Shown here: positions 3,622 through 12,755 of the stretch, piece by piece
How the letters are laid out: each line of letters opens with the position of its first letter
Numbering within the stretch: the stretch's first letter is position 1
Origin: a virus
Taxonomy: Duplodnaviria > Heunggongvirae > Uroviricota > Caudoviricetes
Virus record (IMG/VR): IMGVR_UViG_2563366885_000004
Direction: 5' to 3' (one strand)
Length of the DNA: 15,471 bases
Translations under genes and position numbers: made by a program
Notes under the pieces: model-generated
What the model saw: the letters and a program-made list of their open reading frames with translations, nothing else
Told to the model about the DNA's origin: nothing
Database searches by the model: none

Positions 3622-4788
3622 TTAAACCCCTTTGACAACGTCAGCGTTGACCTGTGGAACCCCGATTTCAGCGGCCAGATTCATGGCGGCTATTACCAGG
3701 TTACTGACGGCCAGCGGATACAGCAGGCTGACCATATTTTTACGGTGACTTCCCGGATTGCTCAGGCGGGCACGTATGGCATCCACTGCACCGGCGTCCA
3801 TAATGTCCGTCAGCTGTTTACCGGCCCGTTGCAGTTTGAACGTCAGAAATTCTTCAAGGTTATTGTCCAGAGGCAGAAGTTCGACCACCTCACAGCGCTG
3901 AACGACTTCACGGACTTCCATATTGCGTTCAGACAGTTTTGTCGCCAGTTCCGGCTGGCCAATCAGCACGATGGACAGCAGTTTTTTGAAACCGGACTCC
4001 AGCTCAAAAAAGCGTTTGAGGTGTTTCAGTGTCGGAATGGGCAGACTGTGGGCCTCCTCAATCACCAGAACGTGGCTGAACCCCGCCTGGCTGCTGTCTT
4101 TCAGGACGCGATGCAACTGGCGAAAACGGGCGTCCTGACTGCGTCTGATGCTTTCCAGTGGTGCGATGGTACTGATAATGGCTTCGGCAATAGCTGCTGC
4201 CTTCAGGGTTTTCCCTTTCACATCGTTGTCTTCCATAGCGATGATGTATGGCTCGATAACAATTACCGGCGCATTCTCGCGGTTGATACGTTCAGTCAGG
4301 TCGCGGCGCAGCGTGGATTTACCCGCACCGGACTCACCGATGACGGCCATAAACCCACCATGACGGGCTGTCTGGTACAGCGCCTCACGCACGTAGCGAA
4401 TGTCCGGGGTGGTGAACACATCATCAGAACCCTGCATGGCTTCGTCGGCGAACGGGTCACGGAAAAGACCAAACGCTTTTTTGGTTGCTGGAAATAACAC
4501 CTGTTTTTTGAGTAACATATTCTCTTCCTCACTGAGGCTCGTTTTATCTGTGGTACCCGCTGTACGGGGCGTGGCCGCGCCCTGTACAGCATCAAAACTC
4601 TTCGTTGTATCAATCCCCTGACTTTCCAGCCAGGACGCAAGACGCCGGCGCACTTCTCCGGGGCTGGTGCGGGGCCACGCGTTATGATTCACAATCTGGG
4701 CCAGCGTGGCCTCAGAAACATCGACAGCTCTCGCCACCACCGCCTGTGGAATACGGGCCTCTTTCAGTTGCTGCTTCAGTACCAGCAT
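3622..4788 (-). CDS. Transposition/replication AAA+ ATPase (MuB-like, ExeA/TniB-like)
   Basis: N-terminal HTH region, Walker A VIGESGAGKST, Walker B-like VLVIEEAH and a VLIGQPEL motif. Lies directly downstream of the transposase. Start placed at ATG 4788 (GAGGAGG RBS) rather than the track start at 4827. Confidence 0.8.
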   Translation of the reverse strand: MLVLKQQLKEARIPQAVVARAVDVSEATLAQIVNHNAWPRTSPGEVRRRLASWLESQGIDTTKSFDAVQGAATPRTAGTTDKTSLSEEENMLLKKQVLFPATKKAFGLFRDPFADEAMQGSDDVFTTPDIRYVREALYQTARHGGFMAVIGESGAGKSTLRRDLTERINRENAPVIVIEPYIIAMEDNDVKGKTLKAAAIAEAIISTIAPLESIRRSQDARFRQLHRVLKDSSQAGFSHVLVIEEAHSLPIPTLKHLKRFFELESGFKKLLSIVLIGQPELATKLSERNMEVREVVQRCEVVELLPLDNNLEEFLTFKLQRAGKQLTDIMDAGAVDAIRARLSNPGSHRKNMVSLLYPLAVSNLVIAAMNLAAEIGVPQVNADVVKGV

Positions 4789-4798
4789 GTTTCCCTCC

Positions 4799-6568
4799 TC
4801 AGTTGCCGTTAACAATGCTGATAACACTGCTGCGGGCCGGTGTGGTCAGCGTGGCCATGACTTCATCCAGTGCGGCTTCCGGTACGCCGTCCGGGTACTG
4901 TGCCGTTAACTGGCGGTAATGTTCCGGCGTCCAGGTAAGGCCGTCGGCGCTGAACTTATCGCGCAGGGCTTTCGCGGCCTCCACATGAGTCATGGGACGT
5001 TGTTCAGTGCGCGGCCCGCGTACGTCAGAGGCCTGACCACGCTTCGGCATATAGGCCGGAAGTGTGGTGTCGTCGATATGTTTATACGGGTCAAGCCGCC
5101 CGCCGAACGGCAGCGCCTTCGCCTTGCGTGCGGCGGCTGCATCTGCGGCGTTGTCTGTACCGGTAACCAGCGCTTCGGTTTCTTTTGCCGCCATCTGTGC
5201 CGGGGTTTCCGGCAGGGCTTTGTAACTTTCGCCAAATACCGCCGCGCCTTCAGCAAAGCCAAACTCGTTCTTTCTGACCTCTTCGACCAGGAAGAACGTC
5301 TCGTGGCCGTCCTCACCGGTCAGAACCACCTGTGCCACATCGCTGCGCCATGGGTTACGGGTAATCATCAGTTTTTCACCAACCAGTACGCCCGGTACCG
5401 TTGATACGTCAAATTCAGTGCCCCGGAACGAGACACGAAGTTTTGGCGTGACTTTGCGGAGTTCTGGTGCCGCCACAGCCAGTTCACGACATACCTCAAC
5501 GGGAGGCGCTTTTTTCAGCTGCTCAGCAGTAATCTTCAGCCAGATATCCGTGCGGGTTTTACCGTGGCGGCTGTGAACAGCCGTGGCGTTAAAGTGGCTG
5601 CGCCATTTCGCGGCCAGCGCGTTGAGTTCTTCCAGACTGTGAACCGGCCGGAACTTCAGACCCGGCTCCAGCTTGCGTTCGATAATGTCCCGCGCCTTTT
5701 CCACCTGTCCGGTGGCGCGGGCGTTATGCGGCTTGTGCGCTATCAGGTCGATGCCCAGTGAGCGGCACATGTTTTTCGTCATACCCGCGGTGTTTGCCGA
5801 GCCGGGGTCGAGATAGAGTATTTTCGGCACGCCGTGCAGCACGTCTGCGCCGCCACGCTCCTGCATGGCGTTGATAAGCACAGAACACAGGTTCTCACCG
5901 GATTCCGCGCCCGTCACATACTCAACGTAAATCCAGCCGCTGGCATGGTCGGTAATCTCGTAACTCCACACGCGGTCACTGGCGATACGGGCAAGGTTAG
6001 CGGGCTTGTTCTTGTAGAACTTCGCGCTGTCCATCACCTGCAGCCCTTTATGTCCATTGCTCAGGTAGTAAAGCGTGCAGAGTGAGGCGTCAATCTGCCA
6101 GACATGATTGGGATGCAGACTGGCCACTTCGGTATGTGGTGCAGGGGCATCCAGTTGTTCCGGGTGCAGGCCATAGTTACGCAGAGCACGGCTGATGGCA
6201 TCTTCAGACAACGGGAAAAACTCACCGGTGGTTTCATCTGTTCTGCCTGCGGTGATAAAGCCGTTAGCCCGCAGGGTTTCCACTGCATCTGCGATGGAAT
6301 AGAGACGCTTACCGTTCTTGCGGGTGGCCTCACGCAGTGTGGCAGATATCAGCGCGGCTTCGTCGCGGGTCAGGGCGCTGCGCCCGGCATCGGCGCGTTT
6401 TTTGCGTTTATCAGTCACAGAGACCTCCTTCAGCCTGCGCAGCAGAGTGGCGCGGGACATGCCAAGTTCAGCACAGGCAGCGTCGTATATTGCACCGCGT
6501 TTACCATGCCCCGCGTCACGTGCCGCGCGGGCGACATAAACCAGTCGTTCAGTCAGGGCAGCATTCAT
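4799..6568 (-). CDS. DDE transposase (retroviral-integrase superfamily; resembles Tn552/TnsB/BcepMu TnpA type more than MuA)
   Basis: 589 aa with N-terminal HTH and candidate catalytic residues in HVWQIDAS, YLDPGSANT and QVEKARDIIE. GGAGG RBS upstream of ATG at 6568. Followed by the AAA+ ATPase partner gene. Confidence 0.85.
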   Translation of the reverse strand: MNAALTERLVYVARAARDAGHGKRGAIYDAACAELGMSRATLLRRLKEVSVTDKRKKRADAGRSALTRDEAALISATLREATRKNGKRLYSIADAVETLRANGFITAGRTDETTGEFFPLSEDAISRALRNYGLHPEQLDAPAPHTEVASLHPNHVWQIDASLCTLYYLSNGHKGLQVMDSAKFYKNKPANLARIASDRVWSYEITDHASGWIYVEYVTGAESGENLCSVLINAMQERGGADVLHGVPKILYLDPGSANTAGMTKNMCRSLGIDLIAHKPHNARATGQVEKARDIIERKLEPGLKFRPVHSLEELNALAAKWRSHFNATAVHSRHGKTRTDIWLKITAEQLKKAPPVEVCRELAVAAPELRKVTPKLRVSFRGTEFDVSTVPGVLVGEKLMITRNPWRSDVAQVVLTGEDGHETFFLVEEVRKNEFGFAEGAAVFGESYKALPETPAQMAAKETEALVTGTDNAADAAAARKAKALPFGGRLDPYKHIDDTTLPAYMPKRGQASDVRGPRTEQRPMTHVEAAKALRDKFSADGLTWTPEHYRQLTAQYPDGVPEAALDEVMATLTTPARSSVISIVNGN

Positions 6569-7493: not shown

Positions 7494-7802
7494 TTATAAA
7501 CGACTACCTGAAATGACACGTTGGTTGATTTCGTTAATACGATCCTGCGCTCGTGCCATCTCGTTACTGTGAGCCATGGCGATCTGCAGTAACTGGATGC
7601 CCGGTGCAAAACGTCCATTCTCCAGTTTCAGGGCCAGCCCTTCTTCAATGAGGGTGTTGAGTGCCCGATTAATGTTTGCTGGTGACTCGTGCAGTGCTGC
7701 CGCCAGTTCACCGTTGGAGATACCGTTCAGAGCGTGGCCACGTAACGCCTTAAGAACACGCAAAATACGGGTACCTGCGCTTGATGTATTTGGTTTATTC
7801 AT
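7494..7802 (-). CDS. Small winged-HTH protein (IclR/MarR-like DNA-binding domain only, 102 aa)
   Basis: RILRVLKALRG...ISNGELAAAL..SPANINRALNTLIEEGLA resembles an IclR-type N-terminal wHTH. ATGA overlap with the ner-like stop. Confidence 0.5.
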   Translation of the reverse strand: MNKPNTSSAGTRILRVLKALRGHALNGISNGELAAALHESPANINRALNTLIEEGLALKLENGRFAPGIQLLQIAMAHSNEMARAQDRINEINQRVISGSRL

Positions 7803-8023
7803 GACACCTCCTTAAGGATACCGGGGGTAACTTCTTTACCTATTGCAACCGATAGATCTCGCAAAATCCGATAAGTCAAACGACCACGTGGTAGTTCACT
7901 TTTACCAGCCCAGCGACTGACTGCCTGTGTGACTGTTCGTGGCTCATAGCCTGCGTTAAGCGCGAACTGGCGCAAGCTACTGCCTCGTTCAACTAGTCGT
8001 GCCCGAACTTGTTGTTTATTCAT
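7799..8023 (-). CDS. ner: Ner-like DNA-binding protein (early negative regulator)
   Basis: 74 aa (Mu Ner is 75 aa). Core SLRQFALNAGYEPRTVTQAVSRW resembles Mu Ner LSALSRQFGYAPTTLANALERHW (from memory). First gene of the early operon, divergent from the repressor. Confidence 0.7.
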   Translation of the reverse strand: MNKQQVRARLVERGSSLRQFALNAGYEPRTVTQAVSRWAGKSELPRGRLTYRILRDLSVAIGKEVTPGILKEVS

Positions 8024-8111
8024 ATGCGGATAGTTCCAGTTGGGTTATCATGTACTCAATATGAATAAATGTACTTATTCAAAATAAATAAATCAAGTGG
8101 AATTACGCAAA
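8024..8111. promoter_or_regulatory. Divergent early/repressor control region with operator-like repeats
   Basis: 88-bp AT-rich spacer between the divergent ner-like and repressor genes. Inverted repeat TGAATAA-N6-TTATTCA at 8062..8081 and direct repeats TGTACTcAAT / TGTACTtATT at 8051..8060 and 8070..8079. Leftward candidate promoter TTGATT-17-TACATT on the minus strand. Confidence 0.5.
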
Positions 8112-8528
8112 ATGAATAACAAAGATGTTAACGCTGTGCTTTCCCGGTTAATGTCACTATTCCAAGCAGAGAATGATAGTGAGTTGGCAAGAGCGCTTAA
8201 CGTCAATAGGCAGACACTTGCAAGTTGGAGGAAGCGTGATTCTGTGCCTTATGCAATTTGCATAAACATCGCAGAAGAAAAGGGGGTTTCTTTAGATTGG
8301 TTGCTAACAGGTAGAAAACAAGGTTTATCAAAAGAAGTAGACGTAACTCCGACGCAAGTGCAGTTTAGCCAAGCTGACCTTACTATGCTTGAGCTTTTAA
8401 AGCAGCTAGACCCCGAGGTTCGTAACGATCTTCTGCGAGGCGCTGCGGAAAAACAGCGAGTGATCGAGATGGAAAAACAACTGAAGGAATTATCCGCAAC
8501 GATTGAGCGGTTAAAAAATGTGGGTTAA
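8112..8528 (+). CDS. Prophage repressor, CI-type HTH without a peptidase domain
   Basis: LARALNVNRQTLASWRKRDSVPYAICINIAEEKGVSLDWLLTG matches the phage CI-repressor HTH pattern. No S24 peptidase motifs. Divergent from the early operon. Track start is GTG 8097; ATG 8112 is an alternative. Confidence 0.75.
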   Translation: MNNKDVNAVLSRLMSLFQAENDSELARALNVNRQTLASWRKRDSVPYAICINIAEEKGVSLDWLLTGRKQGLSKEVDVTPTQVQFSQADLTMLELLKQLDPEVRNDLLRGAAEKQRVIEMEKQLKELSATIERLKNVG

Positions 8529-8650: not shown

Positions 8651-9544
8651 ATGAGTGGTGATGTGAGAAATTATCGTATTGAGTTTCATCAGCTATCGTT
8701 TAAGGCCACAGATCAGCTGGCAAATCTCGGAGATGCTTTTCAATCTGTAATTGATAAACAGAGCCCTTCCTCTTCAAACCATGAGGGTTTTACTAGAGAA
8801 ATTTGGGGGTTGAAAAAACGCGCGGATGGTTCTTTTAGTGGAGAGTTGAGAAAATTTCGCAACTCGAACATTCCGGATAAAGGTGCACCAGGGAAACAGT
8901 CTACCCCTATTCCACTTGCCAAGGATGAAGGGATCATTGAGCGCAATTTCTTTGTATTCTATCCTCGAATCAATGTTATAGGTTGGCACTATAATCATAT
9001 GGCTTGTGGTATAAGCCGTTTTAGTGCATTTCTTTCAACTATCTTTGGTTCAAAGGTTAAGCCCGCACCTTTGCTGGAAAAAGATGCAATCGCTAGGCTT
9101 ATGAGAGGAGATGTCAAAATGAAAAAAATCCAGTTGACGATTCCTCGCCCCCGTAATCCTGAGTTTTACCCTGATACTGATTTCAGTCAAAAGACACTAC
9201 AACTGCTTGGTGATGCAGGTGCCGATACAATGCAAATTGTAATGGGGATTAATACTCGCCGTGGCGATAGTGATGGTAGGCTTAAGCAGAATATAAAATT
9301 TGCTATGCAAGAGTTAGTCGAGTTTGGGGCGAAAAAGGCTGTAATTGATGTGTTCGATGCTGATGGTGTTGTCCATCCTGTGGATTTGATTGCCGAGCGT
9401 ATTTCGTCCTATCAATCGGTAGTTACTGACGCTCGTTTCCCTCCAGCCGAAACCATGTACCGTCTAATCGATACTGCGTATGCTGAAAACCGGGAGAGTA
9501 TCAATGCATATATTGGAGAAGATGAACTCGGCCCTATTGCTTAG
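8651..9544 (+). CDS. Soluble 297-aa protein, candidate RexA-like component of a repressor-linked exclusion module
   Basis: AAGGA RBS upstream of ATG at 8651, same strand as and downstream of the repressor. Segment FFVFYPRINVIGW...ISRFSAFL...RLMRGDV resembles lambda RexA FLFVEGDTIGF...LTDFL...PLMRGTT, quoted from memory and unverified. Confidence 0.45.
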   Translation: MSGDVRNYRIEFHQLSFKATDQLANLGDAFQSVIDKQSPSSSNHEGFTREIWGLKKRADGSFSGELRKFRNSNIPDKGAPGKQSTPIPLAKDEGIIERNFFVFYPRINVIGWHYNHMACGISRFSAFLSTIFGSKVKPAPLLEKDAIARLMRGDVKMKKIQLTIPRPRNPEFYPDTDFSQKTLQLLGDAGADTMQIVMGINTRRGDSDGRLKQNIKFAMQELVEFGAKKAVIDVFDADGVVHPVDLIAERISSYQSVVTDARFPPAETMYRLIDTAYAENRESINAYIGEDELGPIA

Positions 9545-9941
9545 TTTATTGATTGGATGTGGGATTGGTTTTCTCTACTGGTTCAAGTTGCCCCATATGC
9601 CAGTAGCCGCAATCCCAAACTTCATGACTACATTGTCCAGTGTCTTTGCAACGTTGTTAGGTTTTATTATTACAGCAATTGCACTACTTGCATCATTGCT
9701 TGATAAACCGTTACTTAAAAACATGCAAAAAACCGGACATTACAAGCGTCTGATGACCGATGCATTCTACACTTGCTTAGTTTTGCTAGTGTTGGTGTTG
9801 ACATGTTTGATTGGGTTGATGCTGCAAAGTAAGCATCAAGAGATTGTAGCCGCTATTCTCATTGGGCTTGTTGTTATGTCTATGTTGTGTTTATTACAAA
9901 CAGGTAGGCGATTATTCAATATAATCAAAGTGATATCATAA
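9504..9941 (+). CDS. Four-TM membrane protein (about 145 aa), candidate RexB-like effector
   Basis: Four hydrophobic segments. Start at ATG 9504 (GGGAGAG RBS) overlaps the upstream gene's 3' end, indicating coupling. TTLSSVFATLLGFIITAIALL resembles lambda RexB ATLSSYAGTMIAILIAAL, from memory. Size is close to RexB (144 aa). Confidence 0.45.
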   Translation: MHILEKMNSALLLSLLIGCGIGFLYWFKLPHMPVAAIPNFMTTLSSVFATLLGFIITAIALLASLLDKPLLKNMQKTGHYKRLMTDAFYTCLVLLVLVLTCLIGLMLQSKHQEIVAAILIGLVVMSMLCLLQTGRRLFNIIKVIS

Positions 9942-9993: not shown

Positions 9994-10761
9994 CTACTCT
10001 AAATTACTTACAATAAGTTCGCGCCGTAGTGTTCCCTTTCCTGCAAGACTGTAGTTGACCTTCACACAGTGAATGTTCAGACCGTTAAAAACCTGCCGCA
10101 TTTCCGGGATATCGTTGACCGATATAATCATCTTTCCTCTGATGCACCGGGCCAGCTCTGCCAGCCGCGAGTAGTTCCCTTCAGGAAAATCCACACCATA
10201 GCCTTCCGTACCCAGGTACGGTGGGTCGCAGTAGAACAGCGTGTGCGGACGATCATAACGCTCAATGCACTGTTGCCAGTCCATGTGTTCTATGACTGTT
10301 CTGGAAAGCCGCAGGTGTGCCGCTGACAGTTCTTCTTCAATACGCAGCAGGTTGAAGCGTGGCGGGGATGTGGTGGAGGTACCGAAGCTGTGCTCTGCCA
10401 CCTTGCCGCCAAACGCCTGCTTCTGAAGGTAGTAAAACCGTGCCGCACGCTGGATATCCGTCAGTGTTTCTTCCGGGGTGATCTGCAGCCATTTGTAGAT
10501 CTGACGGCTGACCAGCGCCCATTTGAACTGGCGGACAAATTCTTCCAGGTGATGCTTTACCACCCGGTACAGATTCACCAGTTCACCGTTGATATCATTG
10601 ATGACTTCGATCTTGCCGGGTGTCTTAAGAAAATAGAGCGCTGCTGCCCCACAAAACGGCTCCACATAACATTCATGCGCCGGAAACAGCGGCAGAATGT
10701 GTTTTGCAAGGCGGCGTTTGCCACCAATCCACGGCACGATGGGTAATGTCTGCATTTTCAT
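9994..10761 (-). CDS. dam: DNA N6-adenine methyltransferase (Dam-like, DPPY motif)
   Basis: IVPWIGGKRRL N-terminus, FCGAAALYF (motif I-like) and FYCDPPYLGTEGY (DPPY catalytic motif). Track ORF extends to 10851, but the Dam-like N-terminus begins at the Met codons at 10761/10755. Confidence 0.85.
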   Translation of the reverse strand: MKMQTLPIVPWIGGKRRLAKHILPLFPAHECYVEPFCGAAALYFLKTPGKIEVINDINGELVNLYRVVKHHLEEFVRQFKWALVSRQIYKWLQITPEETLTDIQRAARFYYLQKQAFGGKVAEHSFGTSTTSPPRFNLLRIEEELSAAHLRLSRTVIEHMDWQQCIERYDRPHTLFYCDPPYLGTEGYGVDFPEGNYSRLAELARCIRGKMIISVNDIPEMRQVFNGLNIHCVKVNYSLAGKGTLRRELIVSNLE

Positions 10762-10865
10762 AATCTGTAAGCCTTTTACAATTATTAAAAAATATGGCAG
10801 TCTGGTCAGGTCTCGCGAGACTGACTGAACCTTGGTCGGCTCACAGCGCATTCCTGTGGGGCGAT

Positions 10866-10907
10866 GACCAGCCCGGCTTTCGGGTGCCGGGCTGGTCGTT
10901 CTTTCAT
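10866..10907 (+). terminator. GC-rich hairpin followed by a T-rich tract (terminator-like) in noncoding DNA
   Basis: GACCAGCCCGG-ctttcgggtg-CCGGGCTGGTC at 10866..10897, then GTTCTTTCAT. No plus-strand gene is evident upstream, so its function is uncertain. Confidence 0.3.
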
Positions 10908-10951
10908 GATGCGGCAGGGATGGCGGGATTTCTGTTAATGTGGTTTAGGGA

Positions 10952-11167
10952 TTATCCGGGGCGATTTTCTGACCTTATCCGGTCCAGGGCATAAGTAATA
11001 CCTTCTGCAAAAACAGAAGTATCAAACTGCTTTTGTATTCCCTGAAAATGAAAAGCGGCACGACAGACACTCAGTTCTCCGCGGTATAACCGGATAATAT
11101 CTTCCAGAACATTGTTCACTGCTTCAGCACGGCGCTGATGTTCTGTTAACGTTAATCGGGGATTCAT
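10952..11167 (-). CDS. Hypothetical 71-aa protein
   Basis: Strong AAGGAG RBS with 6-nt spacer upstream of the ATG (complement of 11165..11167). No family recognised. Confidence 0.5.
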   Translation of the reverse strand: MNPRLTLTEHQRRAEAVNNVLEDIIRLYRGELSVCRAAFHFQGIQKQFDTSVFAEGITYALDRIRSENRPG

Positions 11168-11570
11168 GATGCACTCCTTAAATGATGATTTTTATGTACT
11201 CACCGGCAAAATATTCTGCCGATTACTGAACACGCATCCGGCACCTCAGGTTTTGATTTATTCTGGTTTTTTCGATATCCCGGACCAGGTTGATCACGAC
11301 CAGAAAAAGTGCCGGTGTTTTATTGATACGCTGATATGGCTTCGGGATAACAGCTATATTCGTTACTCTCAGTTGCTGGCTGTGGGAGCGGCTGATGTCG
11401 TCCTCACGGAAAAAACGCTCTGTCTGCTCAATGCCATGCCGACCTTTCTGCAGCCCCGGCCCGTACCATTTAAAGAGTCACTTCTGGATGCAGTAAAAAC
11501 CGGTGAAAATGCAGTCATCGCTGAATGCGTATCCCGGATTATGCGTTACGTGTTTAATGAACGTAAGTGA
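11166..11570 (+). CDS. Hypothetical 134-aa protein (possible degenerate receiver-like fold; speculative)
   Basis: Codon usage looks host-like (CTG, CCG, GGC third positions). Weak GGGGA RBS. Its start codon overlaps the start codon of the divergent 71-aa gene. It fills an otherwise 378-bp noncoding gap. Confidence 0.4.
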   Translation: MMHSLNDDFYVLTGKIFCRLLNTHPAPQVLIYSGFFDIPDQVDHDQKKCRCFIDTLIWLRDNSYIRYSQLLAVGAADVVLTEKTLCLLNAMPTFLQPRPVPFKESLLDAVKTGENAVIAECVSRIMRYVFNERK

Positions 11571-12274
11571 GGTTTATCCGCTGTCTGCATAATCCCGATA
11601 GCCAGTGCGAGGGGAAGTAATTCCGGGGAAACTCTTTCAAACAGCGATGCCCATTCTCCTCTCGCCATCACTCTGTCCAGCCCGCCCCCCAACTGCATTT
11701 CAGCAATCTTCCTGATTTCCCGGAACAACGCCGCTTTGATCTCTTCATGCTCAGCTTTATTTTCCGGTGTCAGAAGGTATTCGTCGAAGAACCGGGGAGG
11801 CTGGTTAATCGGGATGTGTTCCTGTTTGCCGTACTTCGGGGACGAACAACATTCTGTTGACTGACCAGTGAGTTTACGTAACTCCTTCATGAGCAGCTCC
11901 TGATCGTAAACTGTCATCAGTGCCGCAATGGTGGCATGCAGTGCATCGGGCAGTATCCAGGGTTGCCGGCCCGTGGGGCATATAACATCCAGCAGCTCAT
12001 TCGTCCGACAGATACGCTCCTCGCCGTATGACAACAGGCCCTGTCCCGTGTATTCCTCCAGCCTGATCACTGTGCCAGCCCGTGGTTTCTGCCATGTGCT
12101 CAGATCATCCCCACTCATACGGCGCTCACCGTCCACGTCTGCGGCGTCGACAATGACGCTGTTTCCGAATTCCTGTTTCACCACTTCCTCTATCCGCGCC
12201 AATATGTAACTTTTACCGCTGCCCACAGGACCGGACACGGTGACAGTGATGACCGGATTCAGTGTCTGCGTCAT
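11546..12274 (-). CDS. P-loop NTPase (Walker A GPVGSGKS) with an uncharacterised C-terminal domain, 242 aa
   Basis: AGAGGAG RBS 8 nt upstream of ATG at 12274. Walker A sits at residues 15-22 within a compact N-terminal domain. The C-terminal roughly 150 aa match no family I recognise. Confidence 0.65.
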   Translation of the reverse strand: MTQTLNPVITVTVSGPVGSGKSYILARIEEVVKQEFGNSVIVDAADVDGERRMSGDDLSTWQKPRAGTVIRLEEYTGQGLLSYGEERICRTNELLDVICPTGRQPWILPDALHATIAALMTVYDQELLMKELRKLTGQSTECCSSPKYGKQEHIPINQPPRFFDEYLLTPENKAEHEEIKAALFREIRKIAEMQLGGGLDRVMARGEWASLFERVSPELLPLALAIGIMQTADKPHLRSLNT

Positions 12275-12404
12275 ATCGTATTCTCCTCTGTGAATAATTC
12301 ATCGTTTATCCTGCACATCCCGTATCCCCGGCTCTCTTAACGCGCTTTAAAATCCTTCGCGCCCTGTATTTGTGATGCTGTCTCCACCAGATAAGGAGAC
12401 ACAC

Positions 12405-12755
12405 ATGAAAAACCTGAAAAAATTCATTCCCCCTGTTAAAAAACCTCGCCTCAGCGGCTGGCTGCTGACCTCAGTGCTGTTGCTGGGCACCATCGCTCTG
12501 GTCTCACCACAGCAGCTGCCTGTTGTGATCTACAAGCTGGCACTCATCACGCTGGCAGCAGTGCTGGGTTACTGGCTTGACCGTTCGCTCTTCCCCAAAG
12601 CCCGTCCTGGTCAGTACCTGAAACATGACGACAGGCTGATGGCTGAAGGGCGTTTCCCGGTACAGACCGGCCTTCACCTGGTGTTTTCTGCTGCGTTAAT
12701 TCGCCGTGCACTGATTGTTGCAGCGGTCTGCCTGGCTGTTGCGATGGGGCTTTAA
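12405..12755 (+). CDS. Putative holin or lysis-associated membrane protein (116 aa, about 3 TM)
   Basis: AAGGAG RBS upstream of ATG at 12405. Three hydrophobic segments. Lies immediately upstream of, and coupled to, the endolysin gene (stop 12753..12755, next ATG at 12758). Confidence 0.5.
   Translation: MKNLKKFIPPVKKPRLSGWLLTSVLLLGTIALVSPQQLPVVIYKLALITLAAVLGYWLDRSLFPKARPGQYLKHDDRLMAEGRFPVQTGLHLVFSAALIRRALIVAAVCLAVAMGL

What the first reader, a model, noticed from the sequence alone, without database searches (positions are those of the whole stretch)
10952..12274. Uncharacterised three-gene cluster with a P-loop NTPase between dam and the lysis cassette
The cluster holds a 242-aa protein with an N-terminal Walker A (GPVGSGKS) and an unrecognised C-terminal domain, a 134-aa protein convergent with and overlapping its 3' end by 25 nt, and a 71-aa protein with a strong RBS. 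None matches a family I recognise. The location in the variable central region makes them candidates for an accessory, defence or regulatory function.
Basis: inference. Interest (0 to 1): 0.55.

Follow-up and report, generated by a model that had tools for sequence, protein, structure and literature searches.

The report
Nested accessory gene modules in Mu-like prophage
The three genes are real, but they are two nested uncharacterised accessory modules in a variable spot of an E. coli Mu-like prophage: a tiny phosphate-loop domain with a swappable tail, and a head-to-head overlapping gene pair also found next to the defence hotspot of P2-like phages.

Summary
All three ORFs, the Walker A motif, the 25-nt tail overlap and the strong RBS are confirmed. 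The window is a BcepMu-like transposable prophage of E. coli, 99.6% identical to phage PhiKM.

The cluster is accessory. Relatives join dam directly to the holin gene, carry other cargo, or carry truncated versions. It is not one unit.

(1) The 242-aa protein has a conserved 75-aa "mini-P-loop" domain. This domain also exists as free-standing 70-90-aa proteins in other phages. Here it is fused to a mosaic of shuffled helical modules.

(2) The 134-aa gene (phrog_2266) and the 71-aa gene form a pair whose start codons overlap head-to-head in the tetranucleotide CATG. The same geometry holds in 42 of 42 P2-like phage loci, where the pair borders the gpA-gpQ defence hotspot. Both genes there are under purifying selection (dN/dS 0.08 and 0.12-0.19).

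(3) The last ~80 residues of the 242-aa protein co-occur with this pair in four lineages. In a Serratia-type phage they are a separate gene.

No Pfam, NCBIfam, PADLOC or PDB family fits, and the structure models were poor.

Best guess, inferred: an antisense-coupled effector (134 aa) and antagonist (71 aa) module. Function is unproven.

The parts
11546..12274 (-). Gene for the 242-aa protein (phrog_3787). It is the first gene of a leftward unit divergent from the holin gene.
   Evidence: ORF list. phrog_3787 E 2.5e-169 over 1-242. A family member occupies this position next to holin in 31 of the 35 BcepMu-like loci examined (L001, L002, L005, L006, L011-L034, L062-L065). In L046 only its C-terminal module sits there, and L003, L004 and L007 have no such gene.
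12047..12274 (-). Mini-P-loop N-terminal domain (residues 1-76). This is the only part conserved across the wider family.
   Evidence: An HMMER search of 1.84 billion representatives matched only query residues 1-76 in proteins with unrelated C-termini. Alignment A1 has G20 and K21 invariant, and G15, G18, S22 and W61 conserved in at least 90% of sequences. Free-standing 70-90-aa homologues exist. AF2 pLDDT is 73-86 here only.
12209..12232 (-). Walker A motif GPVGSGKS (residues 15-22).
   Evidence: Translation and conservation in A1. PDB profile hits are limited to Walker A plus the following strand of ABC nucleotide-binding domains.
11870..11962 (-). Internal helical module (residues 105-135, PWILPDALHATIAALMTVYDQELLMKELRKL). 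It recurs at the C-terminus of other family members.
   Evidence: The same segment is at the C-termini of P0037, P0039 and P0060, and in the fragment P0072.
11546..11794 (-). C-terminal 'module F' (residues ~161-242), co-inherited with the 134/71-aa pair.
   Evidence: In L046 it is a separate 102-aa ORF with no P-loop domain (phrog_3787 positions 176-230, E 9.6e-8). An HMM of module F hits the C-termini of P0050 (E 8e-7) and P0046 (E 4e-5). Their loci also carry phrog_2266 plus a small partner.
11166..11570 (+). Gene for the 134-aa protein (phrog_2266). It lies antisense in the whole gap between the 242-aa and 71-aa genes.
   Evidence: phrog_2266 E 2.6e-44. Homologues: Serratia-type P0031 at 52-53% identity; P2-like phages at ~31%; L062 and L065 at 29-32%. 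dN/dS is 0.08 in P2-like loci.
10952..11167 (-). Gene for the 71-aa helical partner protein (phrog_4490).
   Evidence: phrog_4490 E 7e-53. A 25%-identical homologue holds the same position in L046. Analogous partners of 63-69 aa (phrog_25421, phrog_2454) are found in L062, L065 and P2-like phages.
11165..11168 (.). CATG: head-to-head overlap of the two start codons (CAT for the 71-aa gene, ATG for the 134-aa gene).
   Evidence: Sequence. The same 2-nt overlap is annotated in Midge, ST147-VIM1phi7.1 and FSL SP-004. It is also found in L065 and in 42 of 42 IMG/VR P2-like loci.
11546..11570 (.). 25-nt tail-to-tail overlap of the 134-aa and 242-aa genes.
   Evidence: ORF coordinates. Analogous 3' overlaps occur in L046 (2654-2690), L062 (5622-5675) and L065 (5774-5777).
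11174..11179 (-). Shine-Dalgarno AAGGAG of the 71-aa gene, lying inside codons 3-5 of the 134-aa gene.
   Evidence: Sequence. It is retained, together with the first ~18 codons of the 134-aa gene, in the natural deletion variant L021.
10856..10907 (.). Strong GC-rich hairpin between the 71-aa gene and dam.
   Evidence: RNA fold of -36.3 kcal/mol (z -5.1) on the plus strand and -28.7 kcal/mol (z -6.1) on the minus strand. Only the plus strand has a U-rich tail after the stem.
12337..12350 (.). Conserved dyad TTAA(A/C)GCGCTTTAA, midway between the divergent start codons of the P-loop gene and the holin gene.
   Evidence: The alignment of seven diverged intergenic regions shows this as the best-conserved block. 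Its role as a binding site for a late activator is inferred.
9994..10851 (-). Context: Dam methylase, downstream of the 71-aa gene on the same strand.
   Evidence: PF02086 E 1.2e-29. The true start is probably 10761.
12405..12755 (+). Context: holin gene, the first gene of the lysis and late genes.
   Evidence: PF13272 E 1.5e-41. The start at 12405 has an AAGGAG RBS inside the hairpin 12380-12400. PGAP annotates 351 nt.

Best explanation
The segment is a composite accessory locus in the hypervariable dam-holin interval of a BcepMu-like transposable prophage. It has two parts and a link between them.

(A) The 242-aa gene encodes a 75-aa autonomous mini-P-loop domain. I infer that this domain binds phosphate or a nucleotide and probably works as an oligomer. 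It is fused to a recombining string of small helical modules.

(B) Nested inside the same leftward transcription unit is a mobile two-gene cassette. It consists of the 134-aa gene on the opposite strand and the 71-aa gene, with start codons overlapping head-to-head in CATG. Each gene's ribosome-binding site therefore lies in the other's first codons, and each gene's promoter must lie inside or beyond the other gene.

I propose that the cassette is an antisense-coupled effector-antagonist pair. The 134-aa protein is the active, potentially harmful or restrictive component, made from its own promoter. Leftward transcription (P-loop gene, then antisense of the 134-aa gene, then the 71-aa gene) both silences it and supplies the 71-aa antagonist.

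(C) The C-terminal module F of the P-loop protein is a possible paralogue of the 71-aa protein. I propose it is a second binding partner that ties the P-loop protein to the cassette.

Shown: the gene anatomy, its conservation, modularity and co-occurrence, purifying selection, the asymmetric pattern of losses, and the accessory status of the locus.

Inferred: nucleotide binding, the antagonism, the expression logic, and any role in exclusion, defence or counter-defence.
For: Accessory and modular status:
- Relatives lack the cluster (L003, L007), replace it (L004, DUF2441) or truncate it (L002, L025-L030, L033).
- L033 has the same left arm as the window (99.6-100% protein identity for the repressor-like, 297-aa, 153-aa and Dam proteins) but different content in the dam-holin interval.

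Mini-P-loop domain:
- Only residues 1-76 are conserved in 58 HMMER hits, and the C-termini are mosaic.
- Free-standing 70-90-aa homologues occur in unrelated phages.

Conservation of the pair:
- phrog_2266 plus a small partner with head-to-head start overlap occurs in the window group, L046, L062 and L065. It also occurs in three annotated P2-like phages and in 42 of 42 IMG/VR P2-like loci.
- dN/dS is 0.08 for the larger gene and 0.12-0.19 for the partner.
- Third-codon diversity is reduced in the overlapping 5' ends.

Link to module F:
- Module F occurs with the pair in four lineages and is a separate ORF in L046. Lineages without module F lack the pair.
- hhalign of the 71-aa family against the module F family gives probability 58% and E 1e-4.
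- phrog_25421, the partner family in L062 and L065, also hits an internal module of the P-loop protein P0047.

Asymmetric loss:
- The larger gene is lost while the partner is kept in L021/L023, L006 and L070. The reverse was never seen in the loci examined.

Hotspot context:
- In P2-like prophages the pair borders the gpA-gpQ defence hotspot, next to retron-type reverse transcriptase, Fic and DUF262-like cargo.
- Rousset et al. 2022 (PMC9122126), Table S5, lists its proteins as 'hypothetical' in hotspot arrangements.
Against: - No expression, interaction or phenotype data exist.
- Promoter scans found no convincing promoters inside either gene.
- AF2 models are poor (pLDDT 57-58) and fold searches gave nothing. 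No effector chemistry can therefore be named for the 134-aa protein, whose invariant residues are all hydrophobic or structural.
- The asymmetric-loss argument rests on only three or four independent events.
- The homology between module F and the 71-aa protein is weak (58%).
- Within E. coli alleles, dN/dS is only ~0.5 for the 71-aa and 134-aa genes, at very low divergence.
- In P2-like phages the pair diverges at dS ~0.85 like a backbone gene. That could mean a phage regulatory function rather than a conflict module.
Confidence: 0.4

Rival explanations
1. Counter-defence or host-takeover operon. The leftward unit (P-loop protein, then the 71-aa protein, then Dam) is made during lytic growth and protects phage DNA or replication. 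Dam would act by methylation. The mini-P-loop protein would sequester or mimic a nucleotide-dependent host immune component, and its mosaic tail would track variable targets.
For: - The unit is co-directional with and adjacent to dam.
- It is divergent from the late lysis genes, with a conserved dyad placed symmetrically between the two start codons.
- Free-standing mini-P-loop homologues sit in lytic early and late regions of lambdoid prophages and in large phage contigs. Some are two genes to about 4.4 kb from Acb2/Tad1-hairpin proteins (L043, L044, L074, L075) or about 600 bp from a weak Lar-like restriction-alleviation match (L040).
- Mosaic C-termini are typical of arms-race proteins.
Against: - This is guilt by association only.
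- There is no similarity to any known anti-defence protein.
- dam probably has its own promoter, and a strong hairpin separates it from the 71-aa gene.
- It does not explain the antisense 134-aa gene, or the pair's presence in P2-like phages without a P-loop gene.
Confidence: 0.22
2. Prophage-encoded anti-phage defence or superinfection-exclusion system built from all three genes. The P-loop protein would be the sensor ATPase and the small proteins effectors.
For: - The locus is a variable hotspot next to the immunity region. Alternative cargo occupies the same place in relatives.
- The pair lies at the P2 gpA-gpQ defence hotspot, beside retron-type and DUF262-like genes.
Against: - No PADLOC model matches any of the three proteins or any phrog_2266 member.
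- The three genes are separable: the P-loop gene occurs alone, the pair occurs alone, and module F occurs alone.
- The P-loop domain is 75 aa with no recognisable effector domain.
- Homologues of the domain occur in lytic operons and on large phage contigs, some likely from virulent phages, where defence genes are less expected.
Confidence: 0.2
3. Phage regulatory switch. The 134-aa protein is a DNA-binding regulator and the 71-aa protein its small counter-regulator, arranged with face-to-face promoters like C/Cox of P2 or CI/Apl of phage 186. The switch would control neighbouring cargo or lytic timing rather than act in conflict.
For: - The geometry is divergent with overlapping 5' ends.
- In P2-like phages the pair diverges like a backbone gene and stays fixed at the edge of the variable cargo.
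- The 134-aa family has a motif (WL..NGYI..[10-12 residues]..LTEKAL..LN) that resembles the end of winged-helix domains (this resemblance is from memory and was not tested).
- The Midge record annotates the homologue as 'putative transcriptional regulator'.
Against: - No HTH or winged-helix family hits in Pfam or NCBIfam.
- The AF2 model is all-helical and of low confidence.
- hhalign rejects the T7 gp5.5/5.7 similarity cited in the Midge annotation.
- Many relatives live without the pair.
Confidence: 0.13
4. Housekeeping phage function for the P-loop protein, such as a nucleotide kinase or a replication or transposition factor.
For: A weak, non-significant alignment to guanylate kinase (E 0.35). 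Walker A is present.
Against: - The gene is absent from related prophages (L003, L004, L007) and truncated to 141-158 aa in many.
- The conserved part is only 75 aa.
- The transposition ATPase is encoded elsewhere in the window (3622-4827).
- No kinase lid or substrate motifs are conserved.
Confidence: 0.03

Closest known systems
Cargo of the P2-like phage gpA-gpQ (old/tin) hotspot (Rousset et al. 2022, PMC9122126)
   Same: Homologues of the 134-aa protein (~31% identity, phrog_2266) and a small partner lie in this hotspot in 94 of 5426 E. coli genomes and in 42 IMG/VR P2-like contigs, next to hypervariable defence cargo. Their accessions appear in Table S5 of that paper as 'hypothetical'. The window's locus is likewise a variable accessory interval of a temperate phage.
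   Different: No anti-phage activity has been shown for the pair. In P2-like phages it behaves as a fixed edge of the hotspot rather than as swapped cargo. The host phage here is Mu-like, and the pair is nested inside another gene unit.
P-loop NTPases, in particular the Walker A region of ABC ATPase domains, and engineered minimal 'phosphate-loop proteins' (PDB 6c2u; designed ATPase 9jix)
   Same: A strand, then GxxGxGK[ST], then a helix, followed by a short strand. The profile of the domain matches this part of ABC nucleotide-binding domains (E 2e-5), the engineered phosphate-loop protein (E 1.3e-4) and a designed ATPase.
   Different: The conserved domain is 70-77 aa and occurs as a free-standing protein. 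It has no ABC signature motif, D-loop or H-loop, and no invariant Walker B aspartate. All Pfam P-loop hits are below their cut-offs.
Face-to-face promoter switches of P2 (C/Cox) and phage 186 (CI/Apl); antisense-coupled gene pairs (from general knowledge)
   Same: Two divergent small genes whose 5' transcript ends must overlap. This is expected to give transcriptional interference and mutually exclusive expression.
   Different: Here the coding sequences themselves overlap at the start codons (CATG). There is no sequence similarity to C, Cox, CI or Apl, and no promoters have been mapped.
Type II toxin-antitoxin and abortive-infection gene pairs
   Same: Two small adjacent genes on mobile elements in hotspots. 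The larger gene is lost while the small one is kept, but not the reverse.
   Different: The genes are divergent and not in one operon. No known toxin or antitoxin domain is present, there are no PADLOC hits, and toxicity is untested.
Mosaic phage proteins with a conserved N-terminal domain and shuffled C-terminal modules (for example BRO/KilA-N-type and antirepressor families; from general knowledge)
   Same: One conserved N-terminal domain is fused to different combinations of short modules. The same modules also exist as separate small phage ORFs (phrog_18255, phrog_21394, phrog_25421).
   Different: The N-terminal domain is a P-loop unit, not a DNA-binding domain. There is no sequence relation to those families.

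Membership tests
P-loop NTPase superfamily (242-aa protein) | Walker A motif GxxxxGK[ST] after a beta-strand | tested here: met
   GPVGSGKS at residues 15-22. G20 and K21 are invariant; G15, G18 and S22 are conserved in at least 90% of 22 diverse homologues.
P-loop NTPase superfamily (242-aa protein) | Walker B motif (hhhhD/E) on a strand next to the P-loop strand | tested here: inconclusive
   The Asp after strand 2 (IVDAAD) is not conserved. A Glu at the end of strand 3 (TVIRLEE, E74) is conserved in at least 90% of sequences in A3. Its role is unknown.
P-loop NTPase superfamily (242-aa protein) | A complete alpha/beta core of about five strands (about 150 aa or more in known enzymes; from general knowledge) | tested here: not met
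   Homology ends at residue ~76. Free-standing homologues are 70-90 aa. AF2 shows no sheet in the monomer.
P-loop NTPase superfamily (242-aa protein) | Nucleotide binding or hydrolysis | not testable with these tools
   Needs biochemistry.
ABC transporter ATPase (the name NCBI gives to truncated homologues) | Pfam ABC_tran above its cut-off; signature LSGGQ motif, Walker B, D-loop and H-loop | tested here: not met
   ABC_tran did not reach the E <= 1 report limit for the 242-aa query. Homologues score 13.7-23.4 bits against a cut-off of 25, and only over the Walker A region. No signature motif is present in the sequence.
KAP family NTPase (the name NCBI gives to fragments) | Pfam KAP_NTPase at or above 20 bits over the ~290-position domain | tested here: not met
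   13.8 bits, residues 3-43 only.
Known or candidate anti-phage defence systems (PADLOC-DB v2) | A significant match of any component to a PADLOC model | tested here: not met
   The 242-aa protein gives only weak P-loop hits (E >= 0.002). The 134-aa and 71-aa proteins give none, and none of the nine phrog_2266 members hits.
DUF2513 (the UniRef name of the Serratia homologue P0031) | A match to Pfam PF10711 | tested here: not met
   No such hit at E <= 1 for the 134-aa protein, P0031, or six other family members.
Helix-turn-helix or winged-helix transcription regulators (134-aa protein) | A recognisable HTH or wHTH domain by profile or by fold | tested here: inconclusive
Type II toxin-antitoxin module (134/71-aa pair) | A co-directional bicistronic operon with a known toxin or antitoxin fold | tested here: not met
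   The genes are divergent with overlapping starts, and no toxin or antitoxin family matches.
Type II toxin-antitoxin module (134/71-aa pair) | The toxin cannot be kept without the antitoxin (asymmetric loss) | tested here: met
   The larger gene is lost with the partner kept in L021/L023, L006 and L070. The partner is intact in 42 of 42 P2-like loci and in L069. The number of independent events is small.
T7 gp5.5/gp5.7 (cited in the Midge annotation of the homologue) | Profile similarity to gp5.5 or gp5.7 | tested here: not met
   hhalign probability 0.2% and 0.1%.

The most novel reading that the evidence does not exclude
Two things may be new. First, the 134/71-aa pair may be a previously unrecognised class of antisense-coupled effector-antagonist module. 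Its hallmark is start codons sharing the palindrome CATG. It has been kept for long evolutionary times at the edge of cargo hotspots in two unrelated temperate phage families (P2-like and BcepMu-like), and it may act in exclusion, addiction or hotspot control. Second, the 70-77-aa mini-P-loop unit may be a natural autonomous phosphate-loop domain, smaller than any characterised P-loop NTPase that I know of. It would work as an oligomer or as a decoy, and phages would use it as a portable nucleotide-binding head for swappable adaptor modules.
Probability: 0.25. Interest if true: 0.75.

Novelty: new variant of a known kind. Interest (0 to 1): 0.55.

Why it matters
This prophage, or at least its lysis genes, is in about 12% of complete E. 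coli genomes (636 of 5426), including the pandemic ST131 lineage (EC958). The genes are therefore common and entirely uncharacterised.

The head-to-head CATG gene pair is a compact architecture shared by Mu-like and P2-like phages, and it sits beside known defence hotspots. If it is an effector-antagonist or switch module, it would add a new type of phage conflict or regulatory element, and a marker for finding cargo hotspots.

The free-standing 70-aa P-loop proteins would be a natural counterpart to the engineered minimal P-loop proteins used to study the origin of nucleotide-binding folds.

If the genes turn out to have no phenotype, the result is still a clear case of module shuffling in phage accessory regions.

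Tried and rejected
- **Family searches.** Pfam, NCBIfam, PADLOC and PDB sequence searches of all three proteins and of family alignments gave only sub-threshold P-loop matches.
- **Structure prediction.** The AF2 model of the 242-aa protein (64-sequence alignment) has mean pLDDT 57.6. The model of the 134-aa protein (5 sequences) has 57.4.
- **T7 gp5.5/5.7.** The similarity cited in the Midge annotation was rejected by hhalign.
- **DUF2513.** The name given to the Serratia homologue was not reproduced.
- **False positives.** Two long repeat proteins in the HMMER list (P0042, P0079) are compositional false positives.
- **Promoter and terminator scans.** The number of sites was close to the shuffle expectation, and there was no convincing promoter inside either gene of the pair.
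- **Literature.** Searches for the PHROG identifiers, the protein accessions and DUF2513 found nothing relevant.
- **Spurious-ORF idea.** I considered and rejected the idea that the 134-aa ORF is a spurious antisense ORF. The reasons are its cross-family conservation and dN/dS of 0.08.
- **Orientation argument dropped.** I dropped an argument that its orientation marks lysogenic expression. In P2-like phages both flanking directions are lytic (early gpA and late gpQ), so orientation does not decide expression timing.
Full report
**1. What the window is.**
The region 10700-12500 is 99.6% identical to Escherichia phage PhiKM (PQ738613, genus Bcepmuvirus). The rest of the window carries the matching early and late genes:
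- a DDE transposase at 4799-6568;
- a repressor-like HTH gene at 8097-8528;
- a D12 Dam methylase at 9994-10851;
- a holin and an SLT transglycosylase from 12405 onward.

This is therefore a BcepMu-like transposable prophage of E. coli. Its lysis genes are found in 636 of 5426 complete E. coli genomes, including ST131 strain EC958.

**2.
The three ORFs are at the stated coordinates:
- 71 aa at 10952-11167 (-);
- 134 aa at 11166-11570 (+);
- 242 aa at 11546-12274 (-).

Walker A (GPVGSGKS) is at residues 15-22. The 3' overlap is 25 nt. The 71-aa gene has AAGGAG 6 nt before its ATG.

As a result, the 134-aa gene fills, on the opposite strand, the entire gap between two minus-strand genes.

All three proteins match PHROG families of unknown function over their full length (phrog_3787, phrog_2266, phrog_4490).

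**3. No known family fits.**
- Pfam, NCBIfam and PADLOC give only sub-threshold P-loop hits for the 242-aa protein. They give nothing for the other two proteins.
- PDB sequence searches give nothing significant.
- NCBI's names for truncated homologues ('ABC transporter ATPase', 'KAP family NTPase') rest on the Walker A region alone.

**4. The locus is accessory and modular.**
Of the 636 genomes with the lysis genes, 475 carry at least 80% of the cluster and 583 carry some part of it. This sample is clonally biased toward ST131.

The alternatives seen in related prophages are:

| Locus | Content of the dam-holin interval |
|---|---|
| L003, L007 | dam directly next to holin |
| L004 | a DUF2441 gene |
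| L002, L025-L030 | a 158-aa truncated P-loop gene; no dam, 71-aa or 134-aa gene |
| L006 | a 182-aa internal-deletion variant; frameshifted 134-aa gene |
| L021, L023 | 134-aa gene deleted, 71-aa gene kept |
| L005, L022 | an extra phrog_2266 paralogue inserted next to dam |
| L033 | left arm as in the window (99.6-100% protein identity); a 141-aa P-loop gene plus an unrelated 173-aa ORF |

**5. The 242-aa protein is a mini-P-loop domain with a mosaic tail.**
- A word-index search found only E. coli homologues.
- An exhaustive HMMER search of 1.84 billion representatives found 58 hits. Outside close relatives, only query residues 1-76 match (about 35-55% identity). The matching proteins are 150-364 aa long, and their C-termini are different combinations of short helical modules.
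- Some of these modules are also separate small phage ORFs (phrog_18255, phrog_21394, phrog_35734, phrog_25421).
- Two long repeat proteins in the hit list are false positives.
- The N-domain alignment has G20 and K21 invariant, and G15, G18, S22 and W61 nearly invariant. There is no invariant Walker B aspartate. A Glu at the end of the third strand is conserved in at least 90% of sequences.
- A profile search returned many free-standing proteins of 70-90 aa.
- Against the PDB, the profile aligns only with Walker A plus the following strand of ABC domains. It also aligns with an engineered 'phosphate-loop protein' and a designed ATPase.
- AF2 gave pLDDT 73-86 for this domain and low values elsewhere.

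My inference is that the domain is an autonomous unit that binds phosphate or a nucleotide. It is too small for a canonical NTPase core, so it probably acts as an oligomer or together with a partner.

**6. Where the mini-P-loop family is found.**
- In most BcepMu-like loci recovered (31 of the 35 examined), including diverged ones (transposase 52-64% identical), a family member is the gene immediately divergent from holin. The exceptions are L003, L004 and L007, which have no such gene, and L046 (section 8).
- Free-standing members lie just before the terminase genes of lambdoid prophages of Acinetobacter, Pseudomonas and others.
- They also lie on large phage contigs next to an NAD-dependent ligase.
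- Acb2/Tad1-hairpin genes lie two genes away in L043/L044 and about 4.4 kb away in L074/L075. A weak Lar-like match lies about 600 bp away in L040.

This context points to expression in the lytic cycle. It is compatible with a counter-defence role, but it is association only.

**7. The 134/71-aa pair is a conserved cassette with a peculiar geometry.**
- tblastn found ~31%-identical homologues of the 134-aa protein in the P2-like phages Midge, ST147-VIM1phi7.1 and FSL SP-004.
- In each of these records the gene is paired with a divergent 63-64-aa gene whose start codon overlaps by 2 nt, exactly as in the window.
- In 42 of 42 IMG/VR P2-like loci the junction reads GCATGTC, and the partner ORF is intact. 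There are 31 distinct partner sequences.
- In those loci dN/dS is 0.08 for the larger gene (dS 0.85) and 0.12-0.19 for the partner. Both genes therefore encode proteins under purifying selection.
- Third-codon diversity is lower in the first 8 codons of the partner and the first 16 codons of the larger gene. This is expected if each gene's 5' end also carries the other gene's translation signals.
- The pair is present in 94 of 5426 E. coli genomes.
- It lies between the portal gene (gpQ) and gene A, at the edge of highly variable cargo. That cargo includes retron-type reverse transcriptase, a metallo-beta-lactamase-fold protein, Fic and a DUF262-like protein.
- This interval is the defence hotspot defined by Rousset et al. 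2022 (PMC9122126). Their Table S5 lists the pair's accessions as 'hypothetical'.
- I found no paper on these genes.

**8. The link between the two modules.**
- In the Serratia-type phage L046, the gene convergent with the phrog_2266 homologue is a 102-aa ORF. It corresponds only to the C-terminal ~80 residues ('module F') of the 242-aa protein and has no P-loop domain. A 25%-identical homologue of the 71-aa protein holds the head-to-head position.
- Two further BcepMu-like lineages (P0046 in L062-L064; P0050 in L065) have P-loop proteins that end in module F (E 4e-5 and 8e-7).
- Both of these lineages also carry a convergent, overlapping phrog_2266 gene and a head-to-head 65-69-aa partner (phrog_25421).
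- Lineages whose P-loop protein lacks module F lack the pair (L002, L025-L034).
- The 71-aa family and the module F family align with hhalign probability 58% and E 1e-4.
- phrog_25421 also matches an internal module of another P-loop protein.

Module F may therefore be a fused paralogue of the small partner. This last point is only suggestive.

**9. Asymmetric loss.**
- The larger gene of the pair has been deleted or frameshifted while the partner was kept. This happened in L021/L023, in L006, and in the P2-like L070 (also seen in H66 and H67).
- I saw no locus that keeps the larger gene without an intact partner. This holds for 42 of 42 P2-like loci, for L069 and for all window-type loci.

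This is the pattern expected if the small protein neutralises the larger one. It rests on only three or four independent events.

**10. Surroundings.**
- A conserved dyad, TTAA(A/C)GCGCTTTAA (12337-12350), lies midway between the start codons of the P-loop gene and the holin gene in all seven lineages aligned.
- A hairpin (12380-12400) sequesters the holin Shine-Dalgarno sequence. I infer that the dyad is a shared activator site for divergent promoters.
- A strong hairpin (10856-10907, z of -5 to -6) separates the 71-aa gene from dam.
- Consensus scans found no convincing promoters within the pair.

**11. Most likely mechanism (inferred).**
- The pair is an antisense-coupled effector-antagonist module. 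The 134-aa protein is the active component.
- Leftward transcription from the promoter of the P-loop gene runs antisense through the 134-aa gene and then expresses the 71-aa antagonist.
- Module F links the P-loop protein to this pair.
- Whether the outcome is exclusion or defence, addiction, counter-defence or regulation cannot be decided here. Orientation does not settle when each gene is expressed.

Rivals and their weights are listed separately. My confidence in this model is about 0.4. My confidence that the locus is accessory, composite and uncharacterised is high.

**12. Limits.**
- Both structure models were poor, and the fold searches were uninformative.
- The E. coli collection is dominated by a few clones.
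- dN/dS within E. coli alleles is noisy.
- There are no expression or phenotype data.

Noticed in passing
window 8651-9941 (+): A 297-aa ORF (phrog_7651) and an overlapping 153-aa, strongly hydrophobic ORF (weak Pfam matches to membrane-protein families; phrog_8552) lie just downstream of the repressor-like gene, in the same orientation. Only about 22 of the 636 E. coli genomes with this prophage match this part of the window. Relatives carry other cargo here: 328 + 193 aa, a nucleoid-associated protein plus 401 aa, or 175 aa. This may be an exclusion or defence pair co-transcribed with the repressor.
   Followed up: partly
window 12337-12400: A conserved dyad, TTAA(A/C)GCGCTTTAA, sits midway between the divergent P-loop and holin genes. 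A conserved hairpin, GTCTCC..GGAGAC, sequesters the holin Shine-Dalgarno sequence. Both are kept in seven diverged BcepMu-like lineages.
   Followed up: partly
window 10856-10907: A very stable GC-rich hairpin lies between the 71-aa gene and dam (-36 kcal/mol, z -5.1). Only the plus strand has a U-rich tail after the stem, so it looks like a terminator for transcripts entering from the dam-antisense side.
   Followed up: partly
window 9994-10851 and 12372-12755: The mechanical ORF starts are probably too far upstream. The first ~30 codons of the dam ORF are not conserved in relatives, and PGAP starts at MKMQTLP (10761). The holin gene most likely starts at ATG 12405, which has an AAGGAG RBS, and not at GTG 12372.
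   Followed up: partly
L005 3421-3801 and L022 ~7627-7944: A second phrog_2266 paralogue (126 aa, 26-27% identical to the 134-aa protein) is inserted between dam and the 71-aa gene, flanked by a duplicated 5' fragment of dam. This suggests that the family spreads by recombination into this interval.
   Followed up: partly
L033 6502-7023: A phage with the same left arm as the window carries, in place of the 71/134-aa pair, a 173-aa ORF (phrog_1244). The ORF has a coiled-coil region and weak, sub-threshold RING/zinc-finger-like Pfam hits.
   Followed up: no
L043 6730-6960; L074 180-596: Free-standing mini-P-loop genes in a Pseudomonas prophage and on a large phage contig lie two genes (L043) and about 4.4 kb (L074) from proteins with the Acb2/Tad1 hairpin domain, which marks anti-CBASS and anti-Thoeris sponges.
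   Followed up: no
window 11546-12274; homologues P0001-P0007: Most E. coli alleles of the P-loop protein are 247 aa, with a 5-residue insertion (VNT[I/L]P) in the low-confidence linker before module F. The window and PhiKM carry the 242-aa form.
   Followed up: no
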